Shown one piece after another: positions 5,350 through 63,555 of a DNA stretch of 64,000 nucleotides. This DNA comes from Ptychomitrium polyphyllum (lineage: Eukaryota): positions 10,602,001-10,666,000 of the forward strand of contig OZ316776.1 in NCBI GenBank assembly GCA_973851085.1, given 5' to 3'. The position numbers and the translations under genes were made by a program. How positions within the stretch are numbered: the first letter of the stretch is position 1; every line of letters begins with the position of its first letter. The notes beneath the pieces are model-generated. The model made no database searches. It saw nothing but the letters and a program-made list of their open reading frames with translations, and was not told the DNA's origin.

Positions 5350-5406
5350 GTGCAGTGCAGTGCAGGGCCGGGCAGGGCAGGGCAGGGCAGGGCAGGGGAG
5401 GCAGGG
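5350..5406 (+). repeat. GCAGT/GCAGG pentanucleotide microsatellite in the GC-rich 5' region of carrier copy 2
   Basis: gtgcagtgcagtgcagggccgggcagggcagggcagggcagggcaggggaggcaggg. Confidence 0.8.
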
Positions 5407-6065: not shown

Positions 6066-6179
6066 ATGACACTGCCGGAGCATTTGCACATTGTTGCGGG
6101 CGTGCCTGTAAAGCTGCTTGGGTATACCGAGGGTAGAGCTCCTGTGCGCTTGGGGGTTTTATCTCCTCTATCCTTATAG
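6066..6179 (+). CDS. Conserved-peptide upstream ORF (37 aa, MTLPEHLHIVAGVPVKLLGYTEGRAPVRLGVLSPLSL) in the leader of mitochondrial carrier copy 2
   Basis: ATG at 6066 and TAG at 6177-6179, just downstream of a likely leader-intron acceptor (ttttatgatttgaacag at 6009). Peptide matches 43-147 (MTL.E..HIV.GVPV.L....EGRAPVRL..LSPL). Confidence 0.75.
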   Translation: MTLPEHLHIVAGVPVKLLGYTEGRAPVRLGVLSPLSL

Positions 6180-6511
6180 AGTCTTGCTTTGTAGAACATC
6201 ATGTGTTTTTCGTTCTCCCACATTCTGTCTGACCTATCAAGAACCAGATCTGAGCAGAGCGTTGAAATCTGGACCTGCCCAGAGATCTTTCTGATCCGGT
6301 GTTAAGAGTCCCCCGTGAAGATATTCACGTACATCATCATGGACTAGCTATTTTGCTCAGGCATTTGCGAATGCGGGGTGAATTTCTTTAATTCAACGTT
6401 CTAACCTGTTGGACAGACTGAACCTAATTCAGACCTATAGTCATAGTTTGTTGAGCTTAAGAATATTCTTGTACGGTACCCAGTTGAAAGCCCGCAAGCC
6501 CTGACCGTGGT

Positions 6512-7498
6512 ATGACTCTCCACCAGCAATCTCATCAGCATGCCGAAGATGTTCGGCTTCCTGCAGATGTGGACTGGAACATGCTCGACAAGTCAAAGTT
6601 TCTTGTGCTCGGTGCTGCACTTTTCTCTGGAGTGTCAGCAACGCAATATCCGGCTGTGGTGCTCAAAACCCGACAGCAAGTCATGGCTATGAACCAGTCT
6701 TGCACATCCTTGGGGTTGAGCCTTTTGAAAACACATGGGCTCCCGGGGCTCTACAAGGGTTTTACTACTTCTCTCATGGGAACCATTCCAGCTCGTGCAA
6801 TTTACATGTCAACATTGGAGTTTACCAAGTGTAACGTCAACACTCTTGCCAGAAGCGTTGGAGGCATGTCGGAGTCTGGAGCTGCAGCAGTGGCGAATGC
6901 TGCAGCTGGGTTGACAGCCTCCTTTGCAGCCCAGTTTGTGTGGACTCCTATTGATGTCGTTAGCCAGAGGCTCATGGTGCAGGGAGGCCGGGGCGGTCTT
7001 TCCACTGACTACAGAGGCGGCGTTGATGCGTTTCGGACAATCTTGAAGCAGGATGGGCCGCGAGGGTTGTACCGAGGGTTTGGCCTTTCTGTGTTCACAT
7101 GTGCCCCATCAAATGCCCTCTGGTGGGCGTCTTATTGTGTGATTCAGAGGTCTCTGTGGACGACTATCTGTAAGGAGATGAATGGAGGTGAGAATTTTGA
7201 GCCCAGTTCGGTTATGCTTGTTGGTGTCCAGGGTTTCAGCGCATCCCTTGCGAGTGGTGTTTCGGCTGTATTGACAACCCCTTTGGACACATTGAAAACC
7301 CGGCTTCAGGTTTTAAAGGATGAGAGTGGTAGGCGCCCTACTCTGAGGCAGACTCTGAATGCTCTTGTAGCTGAAGGTGGATGGATGGGTTTTTACAAAG
7401 GCATTGGTCCTCGTTGGGCTAGCATGTCCATGTCTGCGACATCCATGATCGTAACTTATGAATTCTTAAAGCGCATGTCTACCAAGCCTGAGGTGTGA
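6512..7498 (+). CDS. Mitochondrial substrate carrier family protein, SLC25A44-like (copy 2), intronless CDS
   Basis: 328-aa ORF collinear with 739-1722 (RLPADVDW.MLDKSKF, GLPGLYKGFTTSLMGTIPARA, APSNALWWASYCV, GPRWASMSMSAT). Confidence 0.93.
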   Translation: MTLHQQSHQHAEDVRLPADVDWNMLDKSKFLVLGAALFSGVSATQYPAVVLKTRQQVMAMNQSCTSLGLSLLKTHGLPGLYKGFTTSLMGTIPARAIYMSTLEFTKCNVNTLARSVGGMSESGAAAVANAAAGLTASFAAQFVWTPIDVVSQRLMVQGGRGGLSTDYRGGVDAFRTILKQDGPRGLYRGFGLSVFTCAPSNALWWASYCVIQRSLWTTICKEMNGGENFEPSSVMLVGVQGFSASLASGVSAVLTTPLDTLKTRLQVLKDESGRRPTLRQTLNALVAEGGWMGFYKGIGPRWASMSMSATSMIVTYEFLKRMSTKPEV

Positions 7499-28700: not shown

Positions 28701-31700
28701 CATTGAAAGCCAGAGATGGAATTGCAGAACAACCGAAACGCAGTGAAAGTTGGTAAGTTAATTCTGAAACCGAAACGTACATAGCGAATGCAACAGATTG
28801 GAATATGACTGCCGAGGGACCTTACCATGTTGATATGGGTGGTGTTCGTTACTTCCTTCGCCCTGGTAGCAAATGCAAGAGTGTTACGCGATTGCTCGAC
28901 ATGGCTATGGGCAGGGCTCATGGTGCAAATGATAGCAGTTCTTGCATTTCCTCCCAAAGAATGTTGTAAGATCCTTGTAAGCTTGGAGTCTCTGTATGGT
29001 ACATGTCCGTTTTTCTTGCTTCCTCCACTGAAAGCCAAATACATGAGTTCGACAACGAGTTATTAAGGACAGGACTAAGCAAGTACTGGCAATGGATTCT
29101 GGATAAAAATTTGAAATCATGTAAAATGTCGGTACCTAAGTTTGCGAATACAAGTGCTTAGAGTCAATAGACTGCGATTAATATGGGCTCCTTCCTTCAG
29201 CCTGGCGCCATCAGCTTGAGTTTGTGATGCTCGTTCACTTCCAGCCAGATCCACAAAATTCTGCGAAATAAACATGGCAGATGTTAGAACAGAGGGCTTG
29301 GTGAGTTACTGTTGAATATGCATGGATAAGATAATGATGCGCGTCTACACTACGGCATTGAAACCCATCCGGGAGGCAATCTGTAGTTCCAAACGAAGTG
29401 ATAGACAAGTCATTTACCAAACTCGCCACTAGAGAGGTTGCTGGAGTCCCTGGAGCAACTCCAGAAGGATGGCTCTCCACAGTCTGCACAGGCAAGAGGT
29501 ATGCTTATATCAACTGACTATATTCGTAAATACGGAATGCCAACTGACTGTATCCAAGTTCACAAAACACCATTACACTAGCAGCTGCAGATCAGACAAC
29601 CCCTGATTACCAACAAGTTGCCTAAAGCGGAGCAATATGAGAATCATTAGTTCATTTGTACTAGTAAACCAGAACTCACCAATCGAATGATCTGATGTGA
29701 CCTTGAGGATGTGTCATTTAGACTGGTCTCTCCGACTTGTCTTTGAGCTGCAGGAATACAAGGATAATCAGTGTAAAGTGAGTTGTGTATGAGCGCTATA
29801 TGTTACAATACAACTTCCGTCCTGTTCACATGGACTCGAAACAAATTCTACAGTGGCAGAAATATTTGTAGAGCTGAGCTCTTCGTACCTTCGCAAATCT
29901 TAACAACCTGCCGCAGATGTTCTACATTACGGACAACCTCCTCTTTCAACTTGTCCACAACAGTACCTTTCTGCGAATCAGAACAGTTCAATTAGAGGCA
30001 AATACATCGCCCTGGTCACAACAGGTAGAAGAATTGCAACGAAGAGTACGGAAGTACCCAGTAGAAGTATCCAAGAGAACCTCAGGTAAAATGAAACTAA
30101 ATGCCTCCCTACTTACCTCTTTGTCGTCAAGCAACCTAAGAGGTGCGTTATCAGAGGTAAGTAGATCTTTCACCACCTCGTTGTAAATTTCAAGTGCTGC
30201 TACTTTCAGTATAAATTCTCTGTCTGTGTTCTGTGACAAAGAGGAGAATCAGCCCATATGCACGAGGAATTCATCACCACTGAGCAAGTCTAAGTGTTCG
30301 TGAAACTCACATTCCACTGTTGTATGTGACAACCCTGGAGTGTGCTGATATAATTAAGGTGTCCAATCAGTATACAAAGCTGGACCAGGCAACACATGTA
30401 GAGGGAAGCGAAGCTCTAAAATCCCAAAATATGTCGAAGGGACGGAGTGTACAAACTATTCAACATAATTCGGAAATCCATTCTCATGCGATAATACAAA
30501 TTTCATGCAAGCAAACTGTAATGAAAGCAAGCCGACTCCACAAATACGCAAGAATGGAAGACCTACATGTTGGATGTACTCAAAAATATCTGCAATGGCG
30601 CTTTCAGTGACTCCCCTCATTGTGAAAGTCTTCCCACTGCTGGTTTGCCCATATGCAAAGATCGTAGCTGCTCGACCCAAATCAAGTCAGAACAATCACT
30701 TCAGAATGAACATGGAGGGTGCTAGAATCGCTATAGGAACAACCTGGTTCATTACACTTGCACTGTTACCATAAAACGTTTTCAGGTCATGGATGAAAGT
30801 CTTACAATTGAGACCCGTAAGGGCCGAGAGGGCCACGTCTTTGGCACCTTCTTCATAAACCCTCTGTGTTTGGCATTCAGGCCCGAATACACGATCTGCA
30901 AACAGCAGCTTAAACGTCAAATTCTATTCACCAACCTTTTTGCGACAAGACATCTCAGAATCTAATTACTCAGATTCCGAATGTGGCCAGGTCTCAGGGC
31001 GTCCTCTAGGAGCTAAATTGCACAAAAGATAGATCTCAAGCGCATATATTCTCCCGGCAACTCGTGCTAAACAAGCACTTCCCCTCAGCCACTTCATGGA
31101 TCCCATTCTACAACGTCTATAATGGTCATCTAGAGGCCTAGTTGTAGGACCTTCAATAACATGACTCAATTGAGCTTCGGTTCAATCTCTAACCAAAAGA
31201 GATACATACTAAGCAGGATCGTTGTGAGCAAACAAGTTGAATACTGCACAGAATAGGTATAAATTCTGGAAGTTCATAAAGGCGAGTAGGTATCCATCAG
31301 AGCAAACTCTTCAATCCGAAAGTAATACCCAAGTATCTAACTTCCATACCCAAAGGAGACTGGAGTTTCCTACTAAGTAGGAAGATAAACGAACTGACAC
31401 CAACTCTCAAATCACAAAACTTGAAGAAAGTAATGTCCAAACGTACGGGAGACTCAAATTGAAAAATAACAGAGAGTGAAAATCACCTAGCGTATACGTA
31501 GCAGGAAATGGCGAACGTTCCGGTAGTGCATGTTTGTACGCTATCGTATTCTCATTGCTGCACACCCAGTCTGAAACGTCGGAGCGAGCCACCTCCTTCG
31601 TACTAAGAGGCCGAACTCGCACCGTGACATAGATCTTTTCCTCCCCGCTCCTAATCCGAGCAAATTGCGCCCCGCCACTCCTCTCCATGGCCACAGTCAT
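25729..31700 (-). CDS. NACK: Kinesin-7, NACK1/HINKEL-like (N-terminal motor, coiled-coil stalk, C-terminal DUF3490), multi-exon
   Basis: '[10 protein letters not shown]', P-loop '[10 protein letters not shown]', switch I 'NDTSSRSH' (about 29700), switch II 'DLAGSE' (about 29240), '[23 protein letters not shown]', '[37 protein letters not shown]', '[32 protein letters not shown]', 'KEMFALNF'. Confidence 0.92.
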
Positions 31701-35029: not shown

Positions 35030-38000
35030 ATGGCGGGCTATGGCGATGGCTATGATGCCACCTTCCGGGACCTGGAGCTTCTCATGGATCGCAACGTCCA
35101 CCGCGCCTTCGCTGGATCTTCATTGCATGCGCCGGTGGCTTCTTCTTCTCTGGCGAATTGTGCTACATTCGGGGAAGAGCGCGTCGTGTTGGAAGGCGAG
35201 GACGCCCGCGAGGACCACGACGATGTAGCAGGTGTGGTTTCTTTTTATGTTTTTTCTATGGAATGATTGGCGTGCGTTGAGGATTGTTTTTCGTATTGCA
35301 GAGGTTTGGAGCGCTGTGAGCTTTGGGAGTTTTGTTGTTGAGAAGAGGTGATGTGTGTGTGAGGAGCGCTTGAGCGGTCGTTGGCGTGGTTGATGTTTTT
35401 GTTCTGTTGGATTGTTACGGGTTTGCGTACTTTCTATTTCGTTGGCATTGCCGAGATCTTTTGAGGCTTTGTTCGTGGTTTTGTCCTAGATTTTGATCTT
35501 CTTTTGCGATGTTTTGCCTTGTAGAGGGAGTTTTAGCTTGCTAGAGTGGTGTTTAGTTTTCTTTAGCGATAAAGTGAAACTAGAAATGCTTTATTCGTGC
35601 TGAAGCTGGATGTTAATCAGTTTATTGTCTACCGGTATTGTGCATAAAGGAGCTTGTGGTTATTATGATACAGAAAAATTCTTACATATTTTGTCAACTG
35701 ACCGTTTTCTTAGTTATGCACATGAGCAGAGCAGCTTCCAATTTGTGAGGCTATAGTTCTAGCAAATTTTAGATAATAATGATGCGATTCCGTTGTCGTG
35801 TAAGGATTACATTGTGAACGTTTTATGAGGATTCAGTTTCACGTGGAGAACTACACTCCTGAGTCGTGAATGAGGATATGAGCTGGAAGCTGTCATGAGG
35901 TTTCGTACAGATGGCAGTGGCGTAATGTTTTGGTATTTGAATTGTGGAAATATTTCCTTAACAGAGTGTCCACTTATCTGTTGTAATTCCGGAAACAAGG
36001 ATTAGACTCGTAACCAGTTTGCATGTCTCATTTTCTTTTTAGTGTCATAGTTCAATGATGTCACTAATTCGAGCAATGGCTCTTCCTCATTTCTTAAACC
36101 GTAGCTGGAACTCACGATATTTTCAAATTGTACTTTTCATCTGGCCTTGCTTTGCAACCATTGTATACCTCACCTGTTTAGTAGCATTTGTTCATATTTT
36201 GCAAGCTTATTGCCGCTGCCTTTTTCTAACAATTTCTGAGGATTGTGACTGTAAACCTTGCTGCAGCGACTCTTGGCAATCCGCTATTTAAAGCTGCTTC
36301 CATCTCCCTTGCTCTTAACTCCGTATTCACTTCTGGCCTCGTTCTGACAAAGAACAATGGATTGACACAAGCGTCACAACACAGTGGATATGGTCCAGCC
36401 ATTTCAGGAGCAGCTCCTTCTCAAAAGAAGAGCTATAGCCCAGTGCCTTTGATGGCTTCTTCAAAGGTTCAGGTTAGTGAATTTAAATCCCAAAGTTGGA
36501 AGAAGGCTTATGTCCGGATTGTTGATTTCTTCTGGAATGTATCTGTTTTTATGCAATCAACCAAGGCTATATTGAGACTTGGGACTCGTTCGACACAGGT
36601 GGCTCTTGATATTCCTGTAGCAACTCCAGTCACCGTTTCAAAGAGATCAGCAAATTATGTGTCAGCTTTTCCAGAGTATGAAAGACTTCAGGGCCCTGAC
36701 TTGAAGGATCCTGCAAATGCCGCTGGTTTACGTAGGGCTTCAATAGTGTGGTTTAGGAATGACTTGCGAGTGCATGATAATGAAGCTCTGGTTTCAGCTA
36801 GTAGAGATTGTCTCTCTATTTTACCAGTATTCTGCTTCGATCCAAGAGACTATGGAAAATCATCTTTGGGTTTCGATAAAACCGGTCCTTATCGAGCAAA
36901 ATTTCTTCTGGAATGTATCTCGAACCTGCGATCAAGTTTGAGGAACAGAGGCTCTGATCTGATTGTCAGGATTGGGAAGCCAGAAGAAGTGCTTGTCGAC
37001 TTGGCAACGAGTGTGGGAGCCGAAGCTCTCTATGTCCATCAGGAAGTCACTTACGAAGAGCTTCAGGTACAGTAGTTTCGTTCTCAAGGACCATGAAAGC
37101 TGTGGAATGTGAAGGCGTGGGAGGTCTTGTGAGGACAGAGTTGAGTATTATTCAAGTAGCTCGCTGTCGGCTGGTTATTCAGCTGTAACTAGATGTGACG
37201 AGTTGGTAGGAAATGATGGTTGCTTTTATTGCAGGAAGGAGATTTTGTTGCAATTTCTAGCAACTCGTACAGACCTTGGTTGTCACATAAGGGTGTCGCT
37301 GTTAAAAGATCATGGAATGTCCTAAACAGAGGACCTTTCCAGGTTTGGGAATTAATCATTCTCCATTATTGTGTGCATGTGGCCCAAGTGTAGAAGGGGT
37401 GACACCTCATTACCTGGAAGTTCCCTACTTTGTGCTAGATCTCTGTAAAGTTTCATGCTTCGAGTGTAAGTTGGAGGATGCTTAAAGCACAGTTTGTAAA
37501 AGTTATCGGTGGCATTGAAGCCTTACTTTTAAAAAAATAGCATGGCAGTGCTGTTCAACCATGTAAATAATGTAGGGATTAACTTGATATCCACGTCAAT
37601 ATCATAAGAACTGGGATTGTACTTGAACTTTGTGTTAAACTCGGAGATGTTTTCAAGGCTGGGTAGGCTGGTTGCATTAGTCTAGGTGGCAGCGCTTAAC
37701 GCAGATAGTCTCTATTTGGACATCTTTCTTTGTGACTTGAGGAAGACGGGTTAAATACGAGGTATACATAATTTTGCAAAGTATGACCAGCGATCTCTTG
37801 CACATGGGAGGAGACAAAACTGAACCCTGTGGAGCCGTCAACTGGATATAGGTCATTGGCCTGTAGTCAATTACGCTATGATCATTTACAGCAACGATAT
37901 CGAGCGTTTTTCCTATGATGCATGCATTTTGGTTTATGGCTTATGTTAAAAGTGTGTTGTCTGTTCAGGCAGAGGAGAAAGTGGCCGCTGCTTTGCAAGA

Positions 38001-39687
38001 GGAAGGTGTTGAGACAAAATATTTTTGGGGCAGCACCCTATATCACCTCGAGGACCTACCTTTTAAGTTAGAGGACATGCCCTCCAATTACGGGGGATTC
38101 AGGGAGAAGGTCCAGAATTTAACTATCAGGGATACAATTGAAGCACCTGAACAGCTGAAGGGCCTCCCCGCACGTGGAAATGTCAAGTCTGGTTGCATTC
38201 CTTCGCTTCAGGACCTTGGCTTGAATCCTGCAGCTACTTTGCGACAGGTCCTTTGCACCATCTGACTTTTGATGTAGATGTGTCTAGGCAGCAGTGACGT
38301 CTTTAACTCTTGGTTGCCAATCTTTGCCATGTTTGGACTGCTAAGGCTTTATTTTTGCTTGAAAAATAAAATAAAATAACGTTCAACTGGGACAGAATAT
38401 TCACCCTATTTTGGAAAGTATCACTGGAGTGACGATTCTATTATATTAGTAGTTGCAACTCTTCATAGATAATCTTTCTGAATTGATTATGCTAGCTCGA
38501 GTCTAATTGTGACTCAGAGCTGTGTTTGGAAACGTTTTGCTTCTATGCTCAGTACTATTTGTCTAGCAGGAGGGCCAAACAGCGGGTGGAGTTGGACTAA
38601 TGGGAGGTGAAGAAGAAGCCTTAAAGAGATTGCAGGAGTTTGCTTTAGCTGTGCCGAGCCAAACAAATATATCCAAAGTGAGCAACAGTCATTCAGAGCC
38701 ACGTGGTGATAACTTATATGGTGCTAACTTCTCTTGCAAAATCTCTCCCTGGTTGGCCTTGGGCTGTCTCTCTCCACGTCGAATGTTTGAAGATCTGAAA
38801 AAGACTATCTCAAGGTTTGCTCCTTAGCCCAAGTGTTGCTACCCTCAAGTTCATTTAGTTTTGTTTTGTTTGTAAATAGACGTTTGATGACATGATCAAT
38901 TGGTGTGCTGCTCTACAATGTAAGGAATTCAATTCAGAAAAATCCTCTTGGAAAAGACTTCATTTGCTACATAGAAAATATCGTTATCTGATTTGTTATG
39001 AGCTGCTTTTGTATGGTTGCTATCAAGTTATCTCTTGTAATAATTCGTATTCTACTGTTTTTGTTGAACTACTATTTTCACTTTATCAGCTGAAATTCTA
39101 GCGATTATTTCTGCTATTGTAGCTCCGTCTCGTGCTTATTGAAGTCTTCCGTAATGACTCTGATGTATAATACGAACCATTGATGTACTAGGTTTTCTTG
39201 CTCTGTCAGGAAGCGCACTTGAGGTAGAATTGAATTGCAAATCTGACAGGTTTTTGATGAGTTCACAGTGCTGGAGAAATGTCGACGTTGGCTGTGAAAT
39301 CTACAGGAACTGGAAGTGAAGACAATGGCCTTAGTTGGCTTGGCTTTGAGTTGTTATGGCGGGATTTCTTCAGGTGCACCTTTCATGCTTTCAGTAGTCT
39401 GGCATTTTTTGTATCATTTTTACTCAATTCGTTTGTTAATAAGGTGTCCATCAACCTCAGTATTGACTGTTCGTATGTCCGTTGAATGATTGTGCGATTG
39501 TTGCATTTAACTCAATGCACAGCTGTGGGTTTCTGAGGTAAGTGTTTTGAGTATTCTAGTTGAACAAATTCTTACGTCCAAGCAATGCGTGGTTTTCAGG
39601 TTTATCACAAAGAAATATGGCACTGGAAAGAGGTTGTCAGAGGTTATCCCAGCTAAAGCTAGCACTCCGTCTCTTGTTGCGGCTTGA
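35030..39687 (+). CDS. PHR2: Photolyase/blue-light receptor PHR2 (cryptochrome/photolyase family, short C-terminus). Predicted exons 35030-35231, 36267-36472, 36566-37066, 37969-38247, 38570-38814, 39269-39373, 39600-39687
   Basis: 'DPANAAGLRRASIVWFRNDLRVHDNEAL', 'FDKTGPYRAKFL', 'FWGSTLYHLEDLPF', 'NLYGANFSCKISPWLALGCLSPR', 'WLGFELLWRDFFRFIT'. The first exon is inferred from a phase-1 compatible splice and is less certain. Confidence 0.9.
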
Positions 39688-41640: not shown

Positions 41641-44600
41641 TCACATGCTCTTGTTCTGTACCACTTGGTTGATTTTATCCGCCAGGTCATCCCAATTGAT
41701 AGGCTTTGTTAAATAGCCCGTTAGACCCATTGCCACAAGACTCTCCTTTCCCTGAGTCAAAACATCAGCAGTCAAGGCGAAGATTGGAATATCACCCACC
41801 CTACCTCCCAACGCACGAATTGCTTTGGTAGCAGTAAGACCATCCATAACAGGCATTTGGAGATCCATTAGAACCATGTCATACTGGCCAGCTTGGATCT
41901 TGTCCACTGCCAGCTGCCCATTAACCACCAACTCAACCTGCATACACAAAATAGACATGAGGGATAAATTAAGATGAATTGAATTAAAGAGAGGCGGTTC
42001 TATCCTGTGTGCAAAAACATTATAGAGCACTCTTTTCAGGCTCCTTATGAAAAAATATCCAAGATGTCGTTTGAGTACAATTTTAGATTCAAGCACATAC
42101 AGAATGAAAGGCACCGTATGTCATAATCTAGGAAATGGAAGAAGTTGGCAAATGGGCACATCTGAAACAACTTGTACTTATGTTTTTATGGCAACAATAA
42201 TAATTCACTTCTTTAAAGCAGCAGGGTACTCTAACTATTTAATAATAACATATCATGGATACAAGTCACTGCTAGTCAACATCATGCAACCAACTAATTG
42301 ACCATAAACATGCTGATCAATCACATAATTAAATTTCAACAGGGCAAGGTTTACGATACCTCATGGCCATAATGCTTGAGCATTTTCCTGATAAGAAGCT
42401 GGTTCACCTTGTTATCTTCAGCAACCAAAACTCGAAGAGTTCTTCCTTTGGTCTTCAATTGTGCTTCTTTCTTATGCTCTTCAGGTGAAGGGATAAGATC
42501 CAACTCTGTACAAGGATTAAATGCTGGTCTTAGTGGCACACAAAATACAAATGTACTTCCTATCCCAGTTTCACTTTCAACCCAGATCCTCCCTCCCATA
42601 GCTTCCACTACCCCTTTGCAGATAGCAAGCCCCAAACCCGTTCCCCCAAACTTCCTTGTAGTGCTACTGTCCGCTTGAGAGAAAGACTGAAACAGTCGCC
42701 CTTGCTGCTCCTTTGTAAGCCCTATTCCCGTGTCTGTAACTCGAACTTCAAACCACGCGGGTAATTCTAAAAACGTTTCTTCTAATTCTTGTTCGTTCTC
42801 CATATTTACAGAGCCTTCGCCATCCTCTCCCATTGTGTCTAAATGGTACTCAAAATCTGCAGAATCGTGTCTTCTATCTATCAGAACATTGGAAGGTTGG
42901 TCCTGGGCTCGTATAGCTAGCTTCCCTAAAACCGTGTCAGGTTCTTTAGAACGTCGTGAAGACTCAGATTGCACGCTCTGCACCTTGTCATCTTCTACAG
43001 GAACCTGCAAATCCTCCAGATTTCAATATCAAAATTGTAGACCAGGAAGAACAAGCATTTATATTTATTCAAAGGCTTCAAAGAAGGTCTGACCTTAATA
43101 TTATAAGATAACAACCAGCCGTTTTATTATTCAATCTCTAATTTGTTAAATTAATCTTCATTTAAAACTTGGAGGAAACATGAAGTGATTTTATATTATC
43201 TCAGACTATTACGCACCTCGTTAGTGAGAACACAGCTATTATCTGCCATATCTGCACCCTCCAAGCCTGGTGGTCGATTAATTTCATCTACACGGGTCCA
43301 TGTAATAGTTATACCGCCGCGCTCGGTAAACTTGATGGCATTGCTGAGCAAGTTTGTGAGTACCTGGGAGCAAATAAGGCATACCACCATCAATGATGCT
43401 GAAACCAACTTCCGACTACACAGAATAACAGAACTTTAGTCTTGTTACGGAAAAGAAGCTTGTCATCAAATTTACCAAGATTAAAACTTAATAATAAATA
43501 TTGCATACCTGCCGGAGTCGATTAGGATCGCCTCTCACTACCATCTCGTCTGCAGGTGGCTTAGATACTATGAGTCGTAACTTCTTCTCTTGTAATTTCC
43601 CTTGAAACAAGGCCTTTACCTGTCACATCAGCCACACCAAGGAGTCTGAAAACCTTGACATTAAACACATGTCTACAGGGAATACGCAGGTATAATCAAT
43701 TATATACGTAAAGAATCAAATTCAATCTATTCCAGAGAACTTATGATCTCACCTGGTCAAGAAGCTCTCCAATGTGGAAGTCTACTATCTCTAGAGCCAT
43801 TTGACCTGACTGGATTTTGGAGAAATCAAGGATTTCATTCAAAACTTGCATAAGACTCTCAGCAGATACTTGCATGACCTTGACATAGGCCCCTTGTTCA
43901 GGGGTCAGAGATGTCAATAGGAGTAGGTCTAGCATTCCCAGTACACCTGTGGACAAGGGAAACAATGATCCTTTTAGCAGACGAATGATACCTGGAAATA
44001 GTTTAAATTATTTGAATTAATGAGGTTCTCACAGCTGCAAATTTACAATACAATCTAAGAATGTTGGCGAGAATTATTACCAGTCATTGGAGTCCGAAGC
44101 TCATGGCTCATCATAGCTAGAAACTGTGACTTGGCAACATTAGCTTGCTCAATTGCATCATGGGCATCCTTCTCAGTGGTTACATCATCAAATAGCCATA
44201 CACGGCCAAGGGTTGACATAGAGGTAATGGGGTATGACCGCACTTTTAAGACACTTCGCGGGTCCTTGAGCTCCCATGTCCACTCATGACACTGATCCGG
44301 GTGATTTACCAAGGAGTTGAAACACCTGTCAACACAATAGTTAATGAAGATTAGAATAGGAAAACTTTGTGCAACAAGATCAATTTTAGCCGTGTAGCAG
44401 CAATTTGAATCTGGTACTGAAAATAGTGAAAGAGATTACCGGTACGTGCTGCCTCGGTCTTTGCACCGATCAGCCAGTCTTCTAATACCACCTGCTACTT
44501 GCACTGGATCTACTTCACCTGCATTCAGTAGACCCAGTACCTTGGCTGCTGCTTCGTTGACCAGGCAGGGTGCCCTCTTATCGTCCACAAATACCACTGC

Positions 44601-46698
44601 CTGTTTGTAGAATTATTGTGTGTCAAACACATCAAAGATCTTGACATATTAGATGCAAATTAATCACAAGAGACCATGATTGATTGGCATCATTATCTCC
44701 AAGAAAAGAGAATTCTTTAATAAAAAACATTAAACATGATAGGACAAATTCCAGTCACTATTTAGGCGTAAATCTTGTTGGATTTAAAATTCAAAGTGTC
44801 TCCCAAAGCGGATCAGATTAACTGCCTATAAAATTGCTTAGAAGCAAATTTATAGTTAACCAATACCAGCAGAATACGGCTGAAATATATGATCCTGTTG
44901 TTAAACTACATAACTACAAAATAGAATACAAATGTTGAAACAGGGTTACCTGTGGCATTCTTTTCATAATAGTGTCAAACCTGCGCCCCATCCTGTCACA
45001 ACATCGAGCTCGGACACGGTTCGCAAGTAAAAGCGGGAATGTGTGACCAGCATCTGACATCACGTCCTCAGCCACATCTGGTACCTTTGCAGGGTCCAAC
45101 CACATTGCAAAGCACATGCCCTCGTAATTGCTGTTTGCAAGCATAACACAAAGAATATGCTGATCAAGTCAGTCCTCATCAAAGGAGGCGCAAAAAGCCG
45201 AAAGGGCAAGTACCTTTCTCTAGAGAATGAGAATGAGAATGAGAGAAATACCACTAAATTCTCTTATTCAGTAGCAGTGTTTAAATTTACCTAGAGAATG
45301 AGAGAATTTACTGGTAGAGCACTTACTCTTCAGCACTAAATTTTGTCGCTAAATACCGTTTTGGTCGAGACCCCAACGCAGCAGTGATCACGCTCGGCAG
45401 CAACAATCCCTGTGTGTCAACAACCTACCATGCCCATCCAGACTACGTTTCATTATTCACTGGACAAGGTTCAGATAAAAGTAAGATACTCAATTGTCTT
45501 GTCAGACTGCGTGCACTCTCAAAGCCCAAAACAATCTGCAAGGAAAAGGAGATAGTGTTCACAGCCCGAATTATATCAAAAAAATCCAAAGTCATTTAGG
45601 ATCATGTAAACCTCATAATAAAGTCTAGTGATTTACTATTACTAGTAGAACTCCAGTGAATAACCCGAAAATAAATGTTCTGAGTAACACTCTCTGTTTA
45701 GGTAGGGTAAAAAGAGGAAATTAAGAACATAGAATTAGGAGGCTAATGTTAAAAGGGAACTATAATCACACGGACGAAACAGACTGAAAAAAAACCACAA
45801 ATAGTCTACTAGGTTAAACAAAATTCCAAGAAAATCCAATGTGAAAAGGCTTTCTTCAGGGTTGATATGATTACGGAAATAAGAAAGAAAAAGAAAAAAC
45901 AAATTCAAACAGAAAGTATCATACCAACAAGCCTCTGAATATCTTAAGCATTGCTGTGCCTTTCGAACAAAGGATACCCTCCAAAAATTCCTCAAACGAC
46001 TCAAATTGTGGCATACAAACCTTATTTTATTACTTAGTAATAAAGAAAATAAACATACAAACACTCTATTGATATGAACAACGCACGGCAAGAAGAAAAC
46101 TAAGACCTACTCATGCAGCTTTGAAGAGTCTTGACTGCCGCACCTCGCAAGTATTCTTCGCCAACAACCCCTTGGACAGCCTTAACGACATATTGATCAA
46201 GTCCCTGGGCACGCAGAGGACGGTCTCAAGCAGCCCTTGTGACTGCAACAGCCCAGCAACGATCAGATCACACTGTAAACCAGTGGCTGTCATCTGTAGA
46301 ACAGCATGAGGCAAGTCCATAAACTCCTCCTTTTGAGCTCTTGTCGCTTGGGATCTAGGTGACGAAGTAGGGCTCATGCCCAGCACTGACGCTGCAACGC
46401 CACCCAATTGCTTAATACTCAAACCAGCGGGTTGAGAACTGTTGTTCCATGAGCTGGAAGAGCCCACCCCTGTTTCTACGCTCAGGATTGACCTAGCGGT
46501 ACCTGCTGCTGACCCATCCGCATGTGCAGGCTCAAAAGTTGATTTAGCGGGCAAATTGATGCTACTTGACTGGCTCTCATCACTGAGTTTGAGCTTCTTG
46601 TTCGGTGAACATGATGTATCGGCCATCTCAGGCTTGCGTATAGAGTTTATATTCGACATTACAGAGCTTGCACTATCACCACCTGAACTCGACTCCAT
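41641..46698 (-). CDS. Soluble hybrid sensor histidine kinase: Ser-rich N-terminus, possible GAF-like region, PAS, HisKA, HATPase_c, receiver. Predicted exons 46698-46144, 45409-45357, 45130-44950, 44600-44440, 44325-44081, 43946-43753, 43619-43509, 43363-43217, 43004-42360, 41937-41641
   Basis: PAS-like 'RFDTIMKRMPQAVVFVDD...VNEAAAKVLG...GRVWLFDDVT', H-box 'AKSQFLAMMSHELRTPMTGVLG', 'GDPNRLRQVLTNLLSNAIKFT', G1 'DTGIG', F 'FQSFSQAD', G2 'GGTGLGLAI', receiver 'VLVAEDN...VLMDLQMPVMDG...TKP'. No transmembrane segment seen. Confidence 0.9.
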
Positions 46699-46994
46699 TG
46701 TACTGAATGGCTTCTAGAAGCTTCAGCTAACTTATAACTGGATGGACTATCAGATTATGATCATATTTTAGAAAACACCAACCTACTCTCTTTTAGTACA
46801 AACTACGAGAAATACCGGACAGATCGGGTTGTCTATTGGAAGTCTTAATCTTAACCTTAAGAGTTGCTGGATAGCCTAAACTAAATCGTTGCATCCAACA
46901 AAGGGCTTCGGCATGAACTTCTAAATTTCCTAAAATCATCACTATCGTCAACCTTGTACCCAAAATCGTAAGCACCTAACAAAGGTCTCAAGTT

Positions 46995-48088
46995 TCAAAT
47001 GCATATGTCGCAGACGATGTGACGTCTCAAGGCCGGAATAACAACATCCGGCGCACTGAGCTGAGGCAAATGACCCTCTGCTTGCAGTATCTCCACAATT
47101 GTCGGACCCCCGAGAGAATGATGCAGGTACGCTGAAACGACGACAGGGACTGCCAGATCCTTGGTGCTTTGGAGAATATGGCAAGGGACTTGAACCTGAG
47201 ATAACCCCAATTGTGGTCAAAATGTGAACGCTGAGTGATAAGCATTCACTACAAAAATAAATGCAAAATATGCAAGAATTTGCAAGACCTAACCTTTCCA
47301 GATTAGAGTCAGTTACGAGCAATGCATGGAGGGGCAGGAAGGACCTGATGTAAAATACTGCGCAAATCACTTGTGAAAATGGTCTTGGCGACACTGAAGG
47401 CAATGTCTGGACGAATATTGAAAAGAGTTCTGCTAAATTCCTGAACTGCCATTGAGTCTATGTCCGCTCCAAGTGCGAGAGGTGCAAAACCCGATACCCA
47501 TGCCTTGAAATTGGATTGCATAGCATGGAACAGTTGGTTGAGATCCTCCTCATTCAGGCCCCCAAGATAATCAACGGTGTTGAGATACCTGCACAAGAAA
47601 AATCCTCTAATGATATAAACTCACACTGTTACAATCCTTATTCCTGCACACCCTCAACTCTCCCTAAGCCAGTACATAGATAAAGATTAGTGGAGATTAA
47701 TATCACATTACCTCGGAGAAGATGAGATCAGAACAATCTTGGAAAAGATGTGCGGCCGTTCAATCGAGGCTAAGCAGCCAATCATACCAGCAACCGAATG
47801 CCCAACGTAAATACACGAATCAATCTCCAGCTCATCTAGAATTGCAAGCAAGTCATCAACGTAACCATACAAGTTGGAGTATCGCGACGCACTAAAATAA
47901 TCTGGGTCCGTGGTGCCAGCGCCCATGCTGTCGAAGACAACGACCTTGAAGTCTTTGAGAAAGTGGGGTACGACATACTTCCAAACGGACTGATCGGTAC
48001 CAAAGCCATGGCCGAACACAACAACCTCCTTCCCATGTCCCTGTACCGTCACATTGTGAACCTCAAGAATTGTAGGAATCTGAGACAT
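46995..48088 (-). CDS. KAI2L: KAI2/D14-family (RsbQ-like) alpha/beta hydrolase, copy A. Exons 48088-47712, 47588-47345, 47195-46995
   Basis: '[10 protein letters not shown]', nucleophile 'GHSVAG', 'SSPRY', 'FAPLALGAD...[17 protein letters not shown]', catalytic Asp 'KDLAVP' and His 'EGHLPQLS'. Introns are GT-AG and in frame; stop TGA at 46997-46995. Confidence 0.93.
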
Positions 48089-50584
48089 GGATCCCGAAGC
48101 CTTGATGAGCAGCCCTAATCTCCACAATTCGCATTAAACGCGCCCTTCCTCCCAACGCTCTAAAAGGTACGCGCAGCAAATACACCTGCGCCCCTACAAA
48201 CATACTCTGTTTAGAACCATAGCCAGAGTCAGTGAAACTAATCAACTCCAACGATTCTCAAACTCTATGGAGCCTCTAAGATGCTCAGTAAAAGTTTGAG
48301 AGCGGCAAGATCTTCCGGGAAGGTGTACCCGGTCACTTGGGTCGTGCCAAACCACCTTCAAAGATTCTAGAGAAACGGCACCGAAGGTTCACCGTCTAGA
48401 TATTCTACAGTGAAGCCCAAATGCAATACATATTGCAGAGTTACTGTGGATAGAATCTTCGCAGGACGAGATGCTTCTCGCGGCTTGTGTGCCGGTCAAA
48501 GGTGCGATTCCCAAGGTGAACCAAATCAACCCTAATTCAAAACAGATTGGAAACTTTCAAAGCACTACACAACTAGTCTCGGAATTCCCACGCAGTAGAT
48601 TGAGAGAAGTACTCGAATCTACTACACCTTGTCGACGACTCTGAAGACTCGCAAGAGCTAAATTCACAACTCAGCGTGATAACGGTCCCCAGCAGCACTC
48701 TAAATGGGAAATCCAACATCCCAGCTTACCAGGCCTCCAACTTGAAGCTACTTCCGTCACAACCACGCAAACCTCGACAGCCAACCGAAGAGACAAACTG
48801 CTACGCGAACTCTGTGAGATGAAGAGCGCGCACTCTCACTTCGTCATCCACAACGCGAACTCACTCACACTGCGACCACTACTCGAAAGATATACTAGAG
48901 GAAAATCAAATAACAAAGAAAAATTTAACCAAAAGAAAAGATAAACCTTTTGCTCCGGTAAAACACACATCCCGAGAAGTCTCGGAAACTCACACTTGGG
49001 CGTGAATCTCGCCCCCTGATCCAAGCCTTCCAAGGACGAGCTCCCGACCCATCCACCTCAGAGGTCCATTCCCAATCACAGCCACAGCTCTCCGCAGCGC
49101 TGGCGCCACATCAACGACTCAACTCAGATCATCACAGAAACTTACCACCCTCTCCTCTCCCTTCACCAAAACGCAAAACTTTGAACTAAGTTCACATCAA
49201 TCAACACCAAGCTTAAATCTGGACACTCACCATTAGTCCCGGTTTTGATCACATATCAAAACAATCATCATCAACATCCTGCACTTAGTAACCTCAGAGC
49301 CATGCAACTTCCAAGCAAGCCCGTCTGATCCTGATCTTTCAGCTAAAGGTGGCGCCTTTGGGGTTGTTTGGACCAGAAAACGAAAGGCGGTAGTTTTAAT
49401 TATTGCGTTGGAGAGAGTCAACTGCTGGGAAGACAATTATGGAATCATGGAACCATGCGATCGGCAAGGCGAGTGAGTGACTGAGTTTAGCGGTTGAACT
49501 TTCGAAGCGGATCAGCGGCTGCATTACTGAAATGCTTGGATTGGTTGCTATAGTAATCGGTAAAGGACTTCTGACGACAGTGGGTCATCGATGGATGAAT
49601 TGCTACCTGATCACAATAATGACGATGACTACACTCCGCAGACTCCCACTAGAACTCTGAAAACGAGTTCATCCTCTCAACTTCTTCCGAGGCCGGACTC
49701 AACAGCGTCGTTCAAGTGTGCCCCACATTCCCTTGGTAAGTGGAGCTTGGGAAGAAAGCGGCAGTAAACTTCGAGTTATGCTTCTTTCCTTATTCCTTTG
49801 CCATAAAACAATGAAAGTCCTCCGCACTGACGAGTCCTTGCGACACCTGCTGCACTACAATCATGCCCGGGACGTCGAGTCAATGTTAAATGCTTTGGTT
49901 GCTTCCACTGCTCTGGCATTCTTTCTTTTGCAGAAGGGACTGTAGCATCCCCTTCACTGGTAATGAGACCAAGAGTTGGGCTCAAGCGCACAGATGGGAC
50001 GATTGTAAATGGGGTACATTTCACAAAAGAAGGGAGTTTTAAGTGGGGGTGGGTGAAAGTTTGAGTGCAAATCTAGATAAGAGGATTATGGTTCATAGTG
50101 AAGAGAATAAGCAAATCTTAATATCTGTGAACACCAAGTGTTTCAAAAACATGAACATGGATAGAAAAATTAGAATCCTAAAAGTTGTTGGATCTTTACA
50201 TTTTATTTTTTTAAATGATGTATTTGATAGGTTCAAGTAATTTTGATATCAAAGTAGGCTTGTATTCTTTGGATATGAATAACCTCTTGGAGCAGTAAGA
50301 AATAAGTCTTTTGAAGTTATGGAAAGCACTATCCACACTTACCATGCAAAATTTCAAACAATTTTTAATTCATAAGAAGTTACTTAGGTTGCAGTTCATA
50401 TTTTGCTTGATGTATATAAAACTAAGGAGTATCAATGTTTTCTAGCAATAAAAGCTCTCCATTCCTTTGGATTTCATTAAACCTAAATGTATTAGGCCTT
50501 AAGACTAAATTGCCCTACTATATAATCACATTAACAATAATAACATAACATTCTTCAACAAAAGCAATTAGTTAGCTTACTAGT

Positions 50585-54900: not shown

Positions 54901-57900
54901 GTCAATGGCCAAAAGTAACATAGGGTGTTGTTTAAATAGACATTTGATAGTCGCAATAGAACTTATCATGTATTAAAAAACATTCAATGATATACATCCA
55001 TACTGTTATTGTAGCATAGATTTTACAATCACAATTGTGTACCCTGGCTAGAAATTCCTCTCCACTATTTTTACGTTTTATTATGATGTATATATAAAGA
55101 ACCATGAGGCAGAAATTAGAAGTCCATTGTGTTTAAAGAAGAGGTAAATGTGAGAACCAAGTCCAAGTTTAGGTCAAAAATAGTATGAAAAAATCTCAGT
55201 GTGTAGATCATGAATGAATGGAATAAAAAAGCAGGTATATATAGATAGTGGAATTTATGGCTTTAAGCCTACAATAACAATTCCAAAATTATTAATCTAG
55301 TCAAAGCTACCCTACACAGAGAGAAACACCAGAAAATTAAAAAATGAAATGAACCTGGGATCACATTTATATTTATCTCTTAGGATTATATAGAATTAGG
55401 ACTATATAGAATGAAAGAGATGGCGTTGTCACTGGAGGGGATGACTGAGCAGCACTGTGTGCACGACGTCCATTGCTGCATAACTGCAGTATACCAGAGA
55501 ACAGCTATGCATACGCAATTCAAAGAAAAAACTCAAAATCCACTTGACAAGTGTGACGCGGTGATTATTTGGTCTGATCTCTTTATATCCTCCGGAGACT
55601 TTCAATTGCAGATTCTGTACGCACAGAGAGCTGTTCGTGAATTTCCACACACGCCAAGGTGGATCATTATGTGCTTGGGAGGTTGGGACTCTCCAGCCAG
55701 TAGAAGTTCACGGCAACAATGAGAATTTTCGCCTTCGGCTTTTGACACTGGATGCATTGAGTACATTCGGATTGGTGAATCCGTTGCCGCGAAATGCTTT
55801 TACAAGTTTGCAGCGGCTATAAATGACCACTTTCAAGGTCTGATTTTCTCATTGTTGCGGGGAACTTTCAACACACGCCGATCAAAGAATTGCAGGGGTC
55901 TCCTAGAATATTTAGATTGGTGGACTAATTTCACTTGAGTGGATGAAGTGCCCGGTTGATTGGCAAAGAATGTACCAGGACAGGGAAGGCCACAAAAGTT
56001 AGGTTGTGGAGGCAATTGCAACCAAACATTTGTGAATCTGGCACTCATTTGTAGGACTTTCGAGCTGTCTAAATGGTATCGATATAATTGTTAGGTACCT
56101 CTCATTGTGTACTACTTGGGCGGCGTTGCCCCTATGCGAAGTTCAGCATCATCTGCGTGTACGACATGTGCTACCTCCTAGCAGATGGCATCTATTTCAA
56201 TTAAATTGGTACGCAACCAAGCAAGAGGGGGCTTGTAAGGATGTCGAGTGTGTGTTTGGTAGCTTAGAAGCCAAATGTGGAGATGTGCGCTATCCATATC
56301 GTTTATGAAATGAGACTATCATGAAGATGGTTTAGAAAGTAGTTGTAATCATGCACAACATGGTGGTTGAGGGTGAAGCAGGCAAACTTGGAGTTGAATT
56401 TTGATTTTTGGATACAACAAACTTTAGCTCAGCTGAAGCAGTTCTGTCGTTTTAGATAATTGCTTGCGAGTCAATGGCAATTCAAAATAAAGATGCTTAC
56501 TACTAACTATCAACAACAACATGATCAACTGCCTTTTACCAGTGAAGGCAAACAAAACTAATGTGCATGTTTGTTTGTATGAATTGTGTGCTTCAGAGGC
56601 AATAGTAAGAGCATTGTATTCAATTGATTTGTACTTCCTTAAAATGGAATTTGTCTCCACTTCCTTCTTGCTTCCATATCTTATTTTTTCCACTCTTCTT
56701 CTCTCCATTTCTCTACTTGAAGTCAGAAAACACAAAATTGAGGTGAATTGGGGCGTAGACTAACCATAATCCAATGTTTGTAATATTCACAATGTTCCAA
56801 TTTATGATAAGCACAAAGTTTAGCAGCCTTGAGCTGAGATTTGTTCTAGGTGATCACTATAGAGTGTGCTATATATTATAAAAATCTTAGATCAAATCAC
56901 CAGCTATATCAATTGGTCAGAATGTCGCATCCGCGCTCAAACCCTTGCTACTCTCTTCATTCATGCCATCTGCTGGTTCTAAACTATGCTGCTTGTAGGG
57001 TGCCGATGGAAGTGTATGATGCACTTGCCACTTTGGCCCCAATTCACCGACAATTCGTTGAAATTGAATTGGCCGACAATTCGGTGAACTATAGCGCCTT
57101 CATAGCCTAACTACTTGAAGGACTCAACTAAAGAAGCACAAAAATTATCAGACTTTTGACCTGTACCTTTTCTGGAATTCTGAATAGCATTCAACCAGGC
57201 TCTACACAAGTGAACCAACTCATTATCATTGAAATTATTACCATGAATCGACGATGAAGGAGGTGCTCCAACATCTACCATGACCATGGTCTCAGAGCTA
57301 TCAACCTCATAGCAATCAGAAGTATAGGTTCTGAAAATGAAGGAAATAACGTTGAAGGAATCCTGTCAAAGTCGACGTGGGGGAGAGTGAATGCAGGAGC
57401 TAGGAACGGGAATGACCAACAACATTCTTCCCCTACAGACAAAGTCTAAACGAACACTTTAGCTGCCAAATATAACTCGCCACTTGGTCCGATCCTTAGT
57501 CTTCTGGGATTTGAGAAGTGCAACAAAGCTCTCTCGAAATGAAGCCACTAAGTAAGGACAAAGTCAAATTCTCATCGCCCCACTCTACAATTTGGCGCTG
57601 TCGAGTTCACAATGAATCGGTTTGTTCTCATATTTTTCTCAAAACTGCGTCAATTCGTAGAAAACACAGGATTTATACTTCCCACCGTGCAGATGCTCTA
57701 AGATGGACAGCAGGCTTGTCAATGTAACTCTCAGTGTTCCAAACTCTTAACTTGAAAAGGGAAAGGAAGGCAACCACTACTAATCTAACCAGTGAGATCA
57801 CCATGCACCGCTCCTGCCAGCACTGTTTTATGGAGACACTATTGGTATATTCGTATCCAAGCTTGAATAAGAATATCTTGCTGCTAATTGGTACTTAGTC

Positions 57901-62514: not shown

Positions 62515-63555
62515 ATGGCTCCTATCGCTGTGGGCGACAAGATTCCTAACGTCACGTTGAATTATCTGGACGATGACAACCAAGCGCAGAAGTTTAACAC
62601 GCACGAGGAGCTCAAGGGGAAGAAGGTCGTCCTGATTGCAGTTCCCGGCGCCTTCACTCCCACTTGCAGGTAGAGATCCGCAGGATGGCACTTTTATGTT
62701 TGTGGGGTTCGTGTCACACTTTACTGATTCGTGTTGTGAGATACTTTGCTTTTCCTCCGTTTTTTATATCATGGCACGAGTGGTTCCATATTTACCTTCT
62801 GTTCGGGACATGGTTGCTAAGGTTGAAAAAACTATTTCAGAATGTGAGATCAAAAACTTCGCAAATGATGCGAATCTGAACAACATCTGGGGGTTCTTTT
62901 TTTTTGTTGTTGAACGGGGTGTAGCTTAAGTTTTTCGCAGTTCTGTATTTCTTTGTTTGCGAAACAGGGGAACGGGTGACACTTCGATAAAATCAATCAA
63001 GTGCGTCGTTACCTATCGCTTGGTTATGAGCCGCTCTCTTATTCACTGTTTGTACTTCGGGGCTAACTTTTTGATTTTTTCTGGCAGCCAAAAGCACATT
63101 CCTAGCTTCATTGAGAATGCCGAGAAGATTAAGAGCAAGGGTGTGTCGGATCTCATCGTCATTTCAGGTCTGTTTATTTTGTTGTTGTAGTTCGCTCACC
63201 AACATGGGATTTTATTTAGTTCAACTTAGCCGTCAGAGTTTTCTATGTTAAATAAACATTCATTGGGAGACGTTAATCATGTGAGGTTATTTGTTGTGCA
63301 GTCAATGATCCGTATGTCATGAAGGCTTGGGAGCGATCTTATGAGGGTGCTGAACACCTCAAGTTTTTGGCTGACGGCTCGGCCGAATTTACCAAGGCGC
63401 TGGGCTTGGAGCTTGATATGACTGAGAAGGGTTTGGGCATTCGTTCTTACAGATACTCTCTCCTGGTTGATAACTTGGTTGTGAAGGTTGCCAATATTGA
63501 AGAGGGTGGGGCATTCGCTGTTAGTGGAGGCGATAATATCTTAAAGGCTCTGTAA
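62515..63555 (+). CDS. PRXII: Type II (PRDX5-like) peroxiredoxin, cytosolic type. Exons 62515-62669, 63088-63167, 63302-63555
   Basis: 'MAPIAVGDKIP', active site 'VPGAFTPTCSQKH', 'SVNDPYVMKAW', 'FLADGS', 'GLGIRSYRY'. No transit peptide. Confidence 0.92.

What the first reader, a model, noticed from the sequence alone, without database searches (positions are those of the whole stretch)
46699..46994. KAI2L-HK spacer looks like a spliced intercistronic linker rather than a terminator plus promoter
On the minus strand the KAI2L stop is followed by 19 nt and a donor-like AG|GTGCTT (GT at 46975-46974; an alternative AAG|GTTGAC lies at 46952). A branch-like CTGAT then precedes the acceptor CCAG| at 46738, 39 nt before the HK ATG. 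Splicing would leave a 58-nt, ATG-free linker, suited to reinitiation. The 39 nt contain in-frame stops (TAA, TGA, TAG), so a read-through fusion via this acceptor is excluded. I saw no AATAAA in the spacer. The whole KAI2L CDS could therefore behave as a giant uORF of the kinase.
Basis: partly seen in the sequence, partly recalled or inferred. Interest (0 to 1): 0.7.

Follow-up and report, generated by a model that had tools for sequence, protein, structure and literature searches.

The report
Bacterial operon relic beside moss KAI2
In this moss the hormone-receptor gene KAI2 sits just ahead of a sensor-kinase gene, a neighbourhood shared with other mosses and liverworts and matching a two-gene unit in bacteria, so the pair is likely a surviving bacterial operon and the kinase a likely overlooked partner of KAI2; the splice sites proposed in the gap between the two genes remain unproven.

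Summary
The real finding is the gene pair. An intact moss KAI2-like hydrolase lies 296 nt ahead of an intact GAF-PAS hybrid histidine kinase. Their orthologues carry consecutive locus tags in Ceratodon, two Marchantia species and Riccia sorocarpa, and the M. polymorpha kinase is even filed under the name MpKAI2A. One RNA-derived contig from another moss runs through both spliced ORFs. In bacteria, 67 of 80 KAI2-like rsbQ genes are followed directly by a protein with the same GAF-PAS sensor (profile match 99.8%), 15 of them hybrid kinases; searching from the kinase side, 5 of 6 new matches had rsbQ upstream. Best reading: KAI2 entered plants together with its operon partner, and bryophytes kept the pair, likely in one transcription unit. 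Binding, co-transcription in this species and the way the kinase is translated are not shown; reinitiation after 273 codons is the weakest step. Not found in print in ten searches.

The parts
47712..48088 (-). KAI2L exon 1 (ATG 48088; catalytic Ser98 in GHS)
   Evidence: exon ends match the spliced junctions in L001
47345..47588 (-). KAI2L exon 2
46995..47195 (-). KAI2L exon 3 (Asp220, His249, stop); protein 273 aa, 83% identical to Ceratodon M758_6G206600
46699..46994 (-). 296-nt non-coding spacer between KAI2L stop and kinase ATG; four ATGs at 46939, 46914, 46894, 46764
46738..46975 (-).
46763..46800 (-). TGTA followed by a T-rich and an A-rich stretch; could serve as a loose plant poly(A) signal (consensus recalled, not tested)
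   Evidence: sequence
46144..46698 (-). Kinase exon 1: start ME-x-x-x-GGDSA as in Ceratodon P0001, low-complexity N-terminus, start of GAF domain
44950..45424 (-). Kinase exons 2-3 (45424-45327, 45130-44950): rest of GAF domain and linker helix
   Evidence: fold (model of paralogue L002)
44081..44600 (-). Kinase exons 4-5 (44600-44440, 44325-44081): PAS domain ending FDDVT, then H-box SHELRTP
42360..43946 (-). Kinase exons 6-9 (43946-43753, 43619-43509, 43363-43217, 43004-42360): HisKA, HATPase_c (N, G1, G2 boxes), start of receiver
41641..41937 (-). Kinase exon 10: receiver with MDLQMP, stop; whole protein 877 aa without internal stop, all nine introns GT-AG

Best explanation
The spacer is the short gap of a conserved KAI2 / GAF-PAS histidine kinase gene pair that is likely the remnant of a bacterial two-gene operon taken up whole by a streptophyte ancestor. 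Shown: both ORFs are intact; order and strand are the same in this window and in L001; orthologues have consecutive tags in Ceratodon and three liverworts; the kinase's GAF-PAS sensor is homologous along its length to the protein encoded directly behind KAI2-like rsbQ genes in bacteria. Inferred: the two genes are read as one primary transcript from the KAI2L promoter; KAI2L is the first ORF, and kinase mRNA most likely arises by alternative processing (an upstream leader spliced to an acceptor in the spacer, or a spacer intron), with reinitiation on a two-ORF mRNA as the less likely route. Inferred by analogy with RsbQ-RsbP: ligand-bound or ligand-hydrolysing KAI2 acts on the sensor part of the kinase and feeds a His-Asp phosphorelay, an output separate from MAX2/SMXL.
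For: Ceratodon: kinase M758_6G206500 / KAI2 M758_6G206600 and KC19_6G215600 / 6G215700, each the top hit of its own search. Marchantia paleacea Mapa_003792 / 003793; Riccia sorocarpa R1sor_010806 / 010807. M. polymorpha: MpKAI2A is Mapoly0023s0137, the 941-aa kinase is MARPO_0023s0138 and its records carry the name 'protein MpKAI2A'. L001 spans both spliced ORFs; L002 of the same assembly is the intron-free form of L003, so that assembly holds RNA. The kinase-linked moss KAI2s form one clade, support 99. Bacteria: 67 of 80 KAI2-like loci have the plant-type PAS within 1.1 kb downstream on the same strand, 12 do not, 1 is cut off; 16 of the 67 are kinases, 15 with a receiver; no other hit among 2821 ORFs; the partner starts -17 to +47 nt from the rsbQ stop in the 58 of 67 where a start was found. 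Profile-profile match 99.8%, E 3e-30, 259 columns over GAF and PAS. In 5 of 5 whole genomes (chosen for having the pair) the rsbQ neighbour is the only match. From the kinase side: 9 matches in two samples of 301 genomes, 8 with rsbQ upstream; 5 of 6 after removing the two centre genomes and one locus already held. Of the best 150 among 1.84 billion proteins, the one non-plant-type protein that matches through the PAS is identical to the rsbQ neighbour in L030.
Against: No reads or junctions for this species. L001 is one assembled contig with retained introns, which overlapping transcripts could also give, and its kinase has a stop and a frameshift. Locus tags give neither distance nor strand; the merged Marchantia gene model was not seen. 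The pair is not seen in the copies listed for Sphagnum (kinases 10G062700, 10G060400; KAI2 tags on 02G, 05G, 15G; 15 of 39 cluster members listed), Diphasiastrum (12G, 16G vs 19G) or Spirogloea (s6, s96 vs s7), and the moss paralogue L002/L003 has no KAI2 upstream in the DNA held; linkage in an alga is therefore not shown. Trees do not resolve a donor. The 67 bacterial loci include many near-copies and were picked with plant-KAI2 motifs. In Marchantia the Mpkai2a phenotypes resemble Mpmax2 and are largely suppressed by Mpsmxl (passages), so known KAI2 outputs need no kinase.
Confidence: 0.6

Rival explanations
1. One reading: one mature two-ORF mRNA, the 46975/46738 intron spliced out, and the kinase made by reinitiation after the full KAI2L ORF.
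For: It is the best ATG-free pair in the spacer; the relative L001 offers the same design with stronger sites (2070/2424, 75-nt linker; 5 of 500 shuffles); a contig spans both spliced ORFs.
Against: Chance-level scores, low T content and a too-close branch site in the window; L001 retains the stretch; reinitiation drops with ORF length; a stop followed by nine introns would be a nonsense-mediated-decay substrate (recalled).
Confidence: 0.2
2. Operon relic in position only: two separate, overlapping transcription units, KAI2L ending at a poly(A) site in the spacer and the kinase starting from a promoter in KAI2L's 3' part or the spacer; the overlap keeps them linked and there is no signalling between the proteins today.
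For: A loose poly(A)-like arrangement at 46800-46763; absence of AATAAA is uninformative; kinase paralogues live without KAI2; MAX2/SMXL accounts for known Marchantia phenotypes.
Against: RNA contig continuous over the whole spacer in L001; kinase filed under the KAI2A name in Marchantia; linkage kept in both mosses and liverworts.
Confidence: 0.25
3. The two genes came to plants separately, or were separated early, and met again by rearrangement in a moss-liverwort ancestor.
For: No linkage seen in the algal, lycophyte or Sphagnum copies listed.
Against: It would have to rebuild the exact bacterial partner, order and strand by accident.
Confidence: 0.07
4. A KAI2-kinase fusion protein made by splicing KAI2L exon 2 to the AG at 46714.
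For: The frames fit.
Against: Acceptor score -6.3; it would drop Asp220 and His249; no protein with both parts among 120 listed KAI2 hits (220-2000 aa searched), 22 kinase hits (482-1537 aa) or 152 further proteins.
Confidence: 0.02

Closest known systems
RsbQ-PAS bipartite sensing module (Bacillus subtilis rsbQP; Nadezhdin, Brody and Price 2011, PMC3183031, passages read)
   Same: RsbQ-type hydrolase encoded directly ahead of a PAS-containing signalling protein; histidine or hybrid kinase is one of the known outputs.
   Different: There the PAS is always the most N-terminal domain and lacks the DIT motif; here a GAF precedes the PAS, which ends in DVT. The host is a plant with introns in both genes. 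Direct binding is shown for RsbQ-RsbP, not here.
Bacterial rsbQ / GAF-PAS pairs found here (Myxococcota, Cyanobacteria, Acidobacteriota, Pseudomonadota)
   Same: Same two genes, order and strand; homologous GAF-PAS; kinase plus receiver in 15 of 67.
   Different: Bacterial genes abut or overlap; the proteobacterial partners checked end in GGDEF and several kinases carry a second receiver and Hpt; plant copies have a 296-430-nt spacer and an added low-complexity N-terminus.
eu-KAI2 receptors (PpKAI2L A-E clade, MpKAI2A) signalling through MAX2 and SMXL
   Same: Window protein has the Ser-Asp-His triad and groups with moss eu-KAI2 proteins; its liverwort counterpart by position is MpKAI2A.
   Different: No kinase partner or linked kinase gene was mentioned in the passages read; origin from bacterial RsbQ by gene transfer is in print but for the hydrolase alone.
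Bicistronic nuclear mRNAs of green algae and plant CDC26-TTM3 (PMC11291117, abstract and passages read)
   Same: Two ORFs on one strand with a short inter-ORF stretch (algal medians 40-183 nt).
   Different: Those work by leaky scanning with few ATGs before ORF 2; here ORF 1 is 273 codons with 17 ATGs, and a mature two-ORF mRNA is not shown.

Membership tests
KAI2/D14/RsbQ alpha/beta-hydrolases (eu-KAI2) | Ser-Asp-His triad and placement among plant KAI2 | tested here: met
   S98, D220, H249; inside the plant clade, with moss eu-KAI2 proteins
KAI2/D14/RsbQ alpha/beta-hydrolases (eu-KAI2) | Butenolide binding or hydrolysis; MAX2-dependent signalling | not testable with these tools
   needs biochemistry and genetics
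Hybrid histidine kinase | HisKA His, ATPase N/G boxes, receiver Asp | tested here: met
   SHELRTP, NAIKFT, DTGIG, GGTGLGL, MDLQMP; Pfam, and in 26 of 26 family members
RsbQ-PAS module (Nadezhdin 2011) | RsbQ homologue encoded directly upstream of the partner | tested here: met
   window and L001; consecutive tags in four other species
RsbQ-PAS module (Nadezhdin 2011) | RsbP-type PAS as most N-terminal domain, without DIT motif | tested here: not met
   GAF comes first; PAS ends FDDVT; the plant PAS profile did not hit the PAS-first partners of L071 and L074
RsbQ-PAS module (Nadezhdin 2011) | Physical and functional coupling of hydrolase and sensor domain | not testable with these tools
   needs two-hybrid, pull-down or genetic tests
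Bicistronic eukaryotic mRNA | Mature mRNA molecules that hold both ORFs | tested here: inconclusive
   one assembled RNA-derived contig from another moss; a contig does not show single molecules
Bicistronic eukaryotic mRNA | ATG depletion before ORF 2 (leaky scanning type) | tested here: not met
   17 ATGs in each of the two KAI2 coding sequences, 4 and 5 in the unspliced spacers
Spliceosomal intron in the spacer | Donor, branch and acceptor above background; junction reads | tested here: inconclusive
   window at chance level, L001 above it; no reads to lay

The most novel reading that the evidence does not exclude
KAI2 reached plants as half of a bacterial sensor operon, and bryophytes still run it: one transcript gives the butenolide receptor and its cognate GAF-PAS hybrid kinase, and ligand-bound KAI2 controls a phosphorelay. 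This would be the original, SMXL-independent output of the karrikin/strigolactone receptor family, and a eukaryotic operon kept since before mosses and liverworts split.
Probability: 0.35. Interest if true: 0.95.

Novelty: new variant of a known kind. Interest (0 to 1): 0.82.

Why it matters
A review states that KAI2 must have worked without SMXL in charophytes and that remnants of such functions may persist (PMC10504578, passage); no effector was named in the passages read. This locus names a candidate, Mapoly0023s0138 in Marchantia, that can be knocked out at once. It extends the published transfer of rsbQ to plants from one gene to a two-gene unit. It gives a simple bacterial pair in which to look for the unknown KAI2 ligand with a kinase read-out. 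If the unit is co-transcribed, kai2a frameshift alleles and expression counts for Mp2g11710 may also reflect the kinase.

Tried and rejected
No RNA holder listed for this stretch; the two listed runs are DNA-type contigs with no joints. No whole genome is held for the window. Complex prediction of Ceratodon KAI2 with the kinase's residues 76-420 gave no answer (score 0.00, alignments not used). A motif seen by eye in the spacer alignment was rejected: the local score was reached by 453-468 of 500 shuffles. A scan of prokaryote genomes with the kinase alignment found no confirmed locus among 373 pattern hits. Foldseek's top hits (DhaR GAF-PAS with DhaK) had TM-scores near 0.3 and were used only as a hint. 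Physcomitrium adjacency could not be tested: PpKAI2L-A is Pp3c2_19340 and a kinase copy is PHYPA_002927, but no table linked the two numberings; calling P0045 'KAI2L-A' is my inference. Whether the GR24-induced kinase Pp3c6_15020 belongs to this family stayed open. The careful GAF-PAS tree did not finish; the quick tree used 40 of 67 bacterial rows (27 near-copies left out) and 18 plant rows; the hydrolase tree used 28 of 80 bacterial rows. Print searches without a report of the linkage: (listings only, open-access library; supplements of preprints closed; the journal version asked for is not held; Wang et al. 2022 on the RsbQ transfer and the Marchantia annotation papers were not read and may mention it). 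Earlier-finding look-ups by place and by the first word set were empty.

Full report
The window is moss DNA: its kinase and hydrolase are closest to Ceratodon and Physcomitrium proteins. On the minus strand a three-exon KAI2-like gene (273 aa, triad S98-D220-H249) ends at 46995, and a ten-exon hybrid histidine kinase (877 aa, nine GT-AG introns, no internal stop) starts at 46698. The start is supported by the same ME...GGDSA opening in Ceratodon and L001. The spacer is 296 nt. Two DNA-type runs cover the stretch without joints, but may be the window's own source.

Observation. The splice signals are not above chance here. With a matrix from 15 introns the donor and acceptor are in the top 8-9% of sites; 85 of 226 AT-matched tiles have an equal pair, 10 of them with an ATG-free remainder. 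T content (33% against 37-41%) and a branch adenine 12 nt from the acceptor weigh against it. The matrix is small, so this neither proves nor excludes the intron. Missing AATAAA is uninformative (33 of 226 tiles have one).

Conserved neighbourhood. Two independent searches gave consecutive Ceratodon genes as top hits: kinase M758_6G206500 and KAI2 M758_6G206600, and KC19_6G215600 / 6G215700 in a second assembly. The same holds in Marchantia paleacea (Mapa_003792 / 003793) and Riccia sorocarpa (R1sor_010806 / 010807). In M. polymorpha MpKAI2A is Mapoly0023s0137 (preprint 10.1101/2020.11.17.387852, passage; Mp2g11710 in PMC12993094, passage); the kinase is MARPO_0023s0138, and its 941-aa records carry the name 'protein MpKAI2A'. 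I infer that annotators merged the two ORFs into one locus; I did not see the gene model. Tags give no distance or strand. Against generality: the copies listed for Sphagnum, Diphasiastrum and Spirogloea are not consecutive, lists being incomplete, and a second moss kinase clade (L002, L003) has no KAI2 in the DNA held upstream. None of the 22 kinase hits carries a seed-plant name. The linked moss KAI2 proteins form one clade (support 99).

Transcript evidence. A metagenome scan gave 3 loci from 209 pattern hits. L001 holds a KAI2 coding sequence with both introns gone, a 430-nt spacer, and the kinase with introns 1-5 gone and 6-7 kept. L002, from the same assembly, is the exact spliced form of L003, so the assembly holds RNA. 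RNA thus covers the whole spacer in another moss, but a contig can be built from overlapping or unfinished transcripts, and this kinase copy has a stop and a frameshift. The two spacers share no sequence. In L001 the best donor (2070) and best acceptor (2424) enclose all five ATGs and would leave 75 nt (5 of 500 shuffles, 1 of 157 tiles).

What the kinase is. A model of the paralogue's N-terminal region (mean pLDDT 84) shows two domains, matching GAF structures over residues 2-141 and PAS/LOV structures over about 140-275 (Z about 10, rmsd 3-4). Pfam sees HisKA, HATPase_c and receiver in 26 of 26 members and a weak PAS_7 in 20.

Bacterial counterpart. A scan with the plant KAI2 alignment kept 80 of 85 confirmed prokaryotic loci. 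In 67 the next gene on the same strand matches the plant PAS profile (25-67 bits), in 12 it does not, 1 is cut off; no other ORF of 2821 matched. Sixteen of the 67 are kinases, 15 with a receiver, from Myxococcota, Cyanobacteria, one acidobacterium and one alphaproteobacterial bin; the three proteobacterial partners scanned end in GGDEF. Starts lie at a median of -1 nt from the hydrolase stop in 58 of 67. The plant and bacterial alignments match over GAF and PAS (99.8%, E 3e-30, 259 columns). In five genomes picked for having the pair, the neighbour is the only match (placed by the ranges). Searching two phylum samples from the kinase side gave 2 of 301 and 7 of 301 genomes; 8 of the 9 matches have the hydrolase upstream, 5 of 6 once the centres and one known locus are removed, the miss being the weakest hit. 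In a search blind to context, the only non-plant-type protein among the best 150 that matches through the PAS is the L030 neighbour. Many of the 67 loci are near-copies, so they are not 67 events. Quick trees show each plant family as one clade (99 and 97); plant KAI2 joins a group holding all kinase-linked hydrolases and six others at support 90; no donor is resolved.

How it likely works. Shown: intact genes, conserved neighbourhood, homology to a tightly coupled bacterial pair. Inferred (about 0.85): both genes arrived together and stayed linked in mosses and liverworts. Inferred (about 0.6): one primary transcript. For making the kinase I favour alternative processing over reinitiation, since reinitiation falls with ORF length (PMC11291117, passage), leaky scanning faces 17 ATGs, and a stop ahead of nine introns invites decay (recalled). 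Inferred (about 0.4-0.45): KAI2 still controls the kinase, by analogy with RsbQ and RsbP, which bind through the PAS (PMC3183031, passages). Against this, Marchantia kai2a behaves like max2 and is largely suppressed by smxl.

Comparison and novelty. It works like the RsbQ-PAS module but is not a member as defined: the partner begins with GAF and its PAS ends in a DIT-type motif. Transfer of rsbQ to plants is in print (10.1101/2025.03.14.642314, 10.1101/2023.12.05.570042, PMC10504578; passages); the words kinase and operon did not occur in the first of these. Two surveys of plant and algal kinases did not mention a hydrolase or KAI2 link in the passages found (PMC6324907, PMC13730384). Other papers seen: 10.1101/2020.11.24.395954 (passages), PMC5100863 (passages and Table S1), PMC11787308 (no hit for five terms), PMC12917456 (supplement search only), 10.1101/2023.04.11.536386 (one passage). 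Ten searches of the open library found no report of the linkage; subscription papers and preprint supplements were not visible.

Verdict. The pair itself is the surprise: new variant of a known kind, interest 0.82.

Noticed in passing
window 59863-58690 (minus strand): A second, more divergent KAI2-like gene about 10.6 kb upstream on the same strand, three exons, 55-61% identical to the Ceratodon KAI2; clade not determined.
   Followed up: partly
window 46759-46788 and 48309-48338: A 60-nt contig of run X2 joins these two pieces in inverted orientation; both end at GATC, which looks like a ligation junction of the library, not a splice or rearrangement.
   Followed up: no
L001 2110-2205: Three tandem copies of a unit of about 32 nt in the spacer of the related moss.
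   Followed up: no
L001 3113-3160: The kinase ORF behind KAI2 has a stop and a frameshift in this contig: decaying copy or assembly error.
   Followed up: partly
Physcomitrium Pp3c6_15020 (literature): A histidine kinase gene used as a GR24-induced, MAX2-dependent marker; Physcomitrium has a third copy of the GAF-PAS kinase on a 19.5-Mb contig that also carries a KAI2L gene. Whether they are the same gene is open.
   Followed up: partly
P0187, P0211, P0213 (Sphagnum models): These kinase models begin with a helicase/P-loop-like fragment, probably a neighbouring gene merged in by annotation.
   Followed up: no
P0199-P0202, P0240, P0243, P0244, P0250: A second, deep plant clade of the same GAF-PAS kinase (Diphasiastrum, Riccia and unnamed), so the kinase duplicated early.
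   Followed up: partly
window 36230-38262 (+), 25732-30686 (-), 658-7495 (+), 63277-63552 (+): Neighbours: a photolyase/cryptochrome-family gene converging on the kinase, a kinesin with DUF3490, two mitochondrial-carrier ORFs, a redoxin; a transposon fragment near 56036-56305 (82 of 172 ORFs scanned, some added by hand).
   Followed up: no
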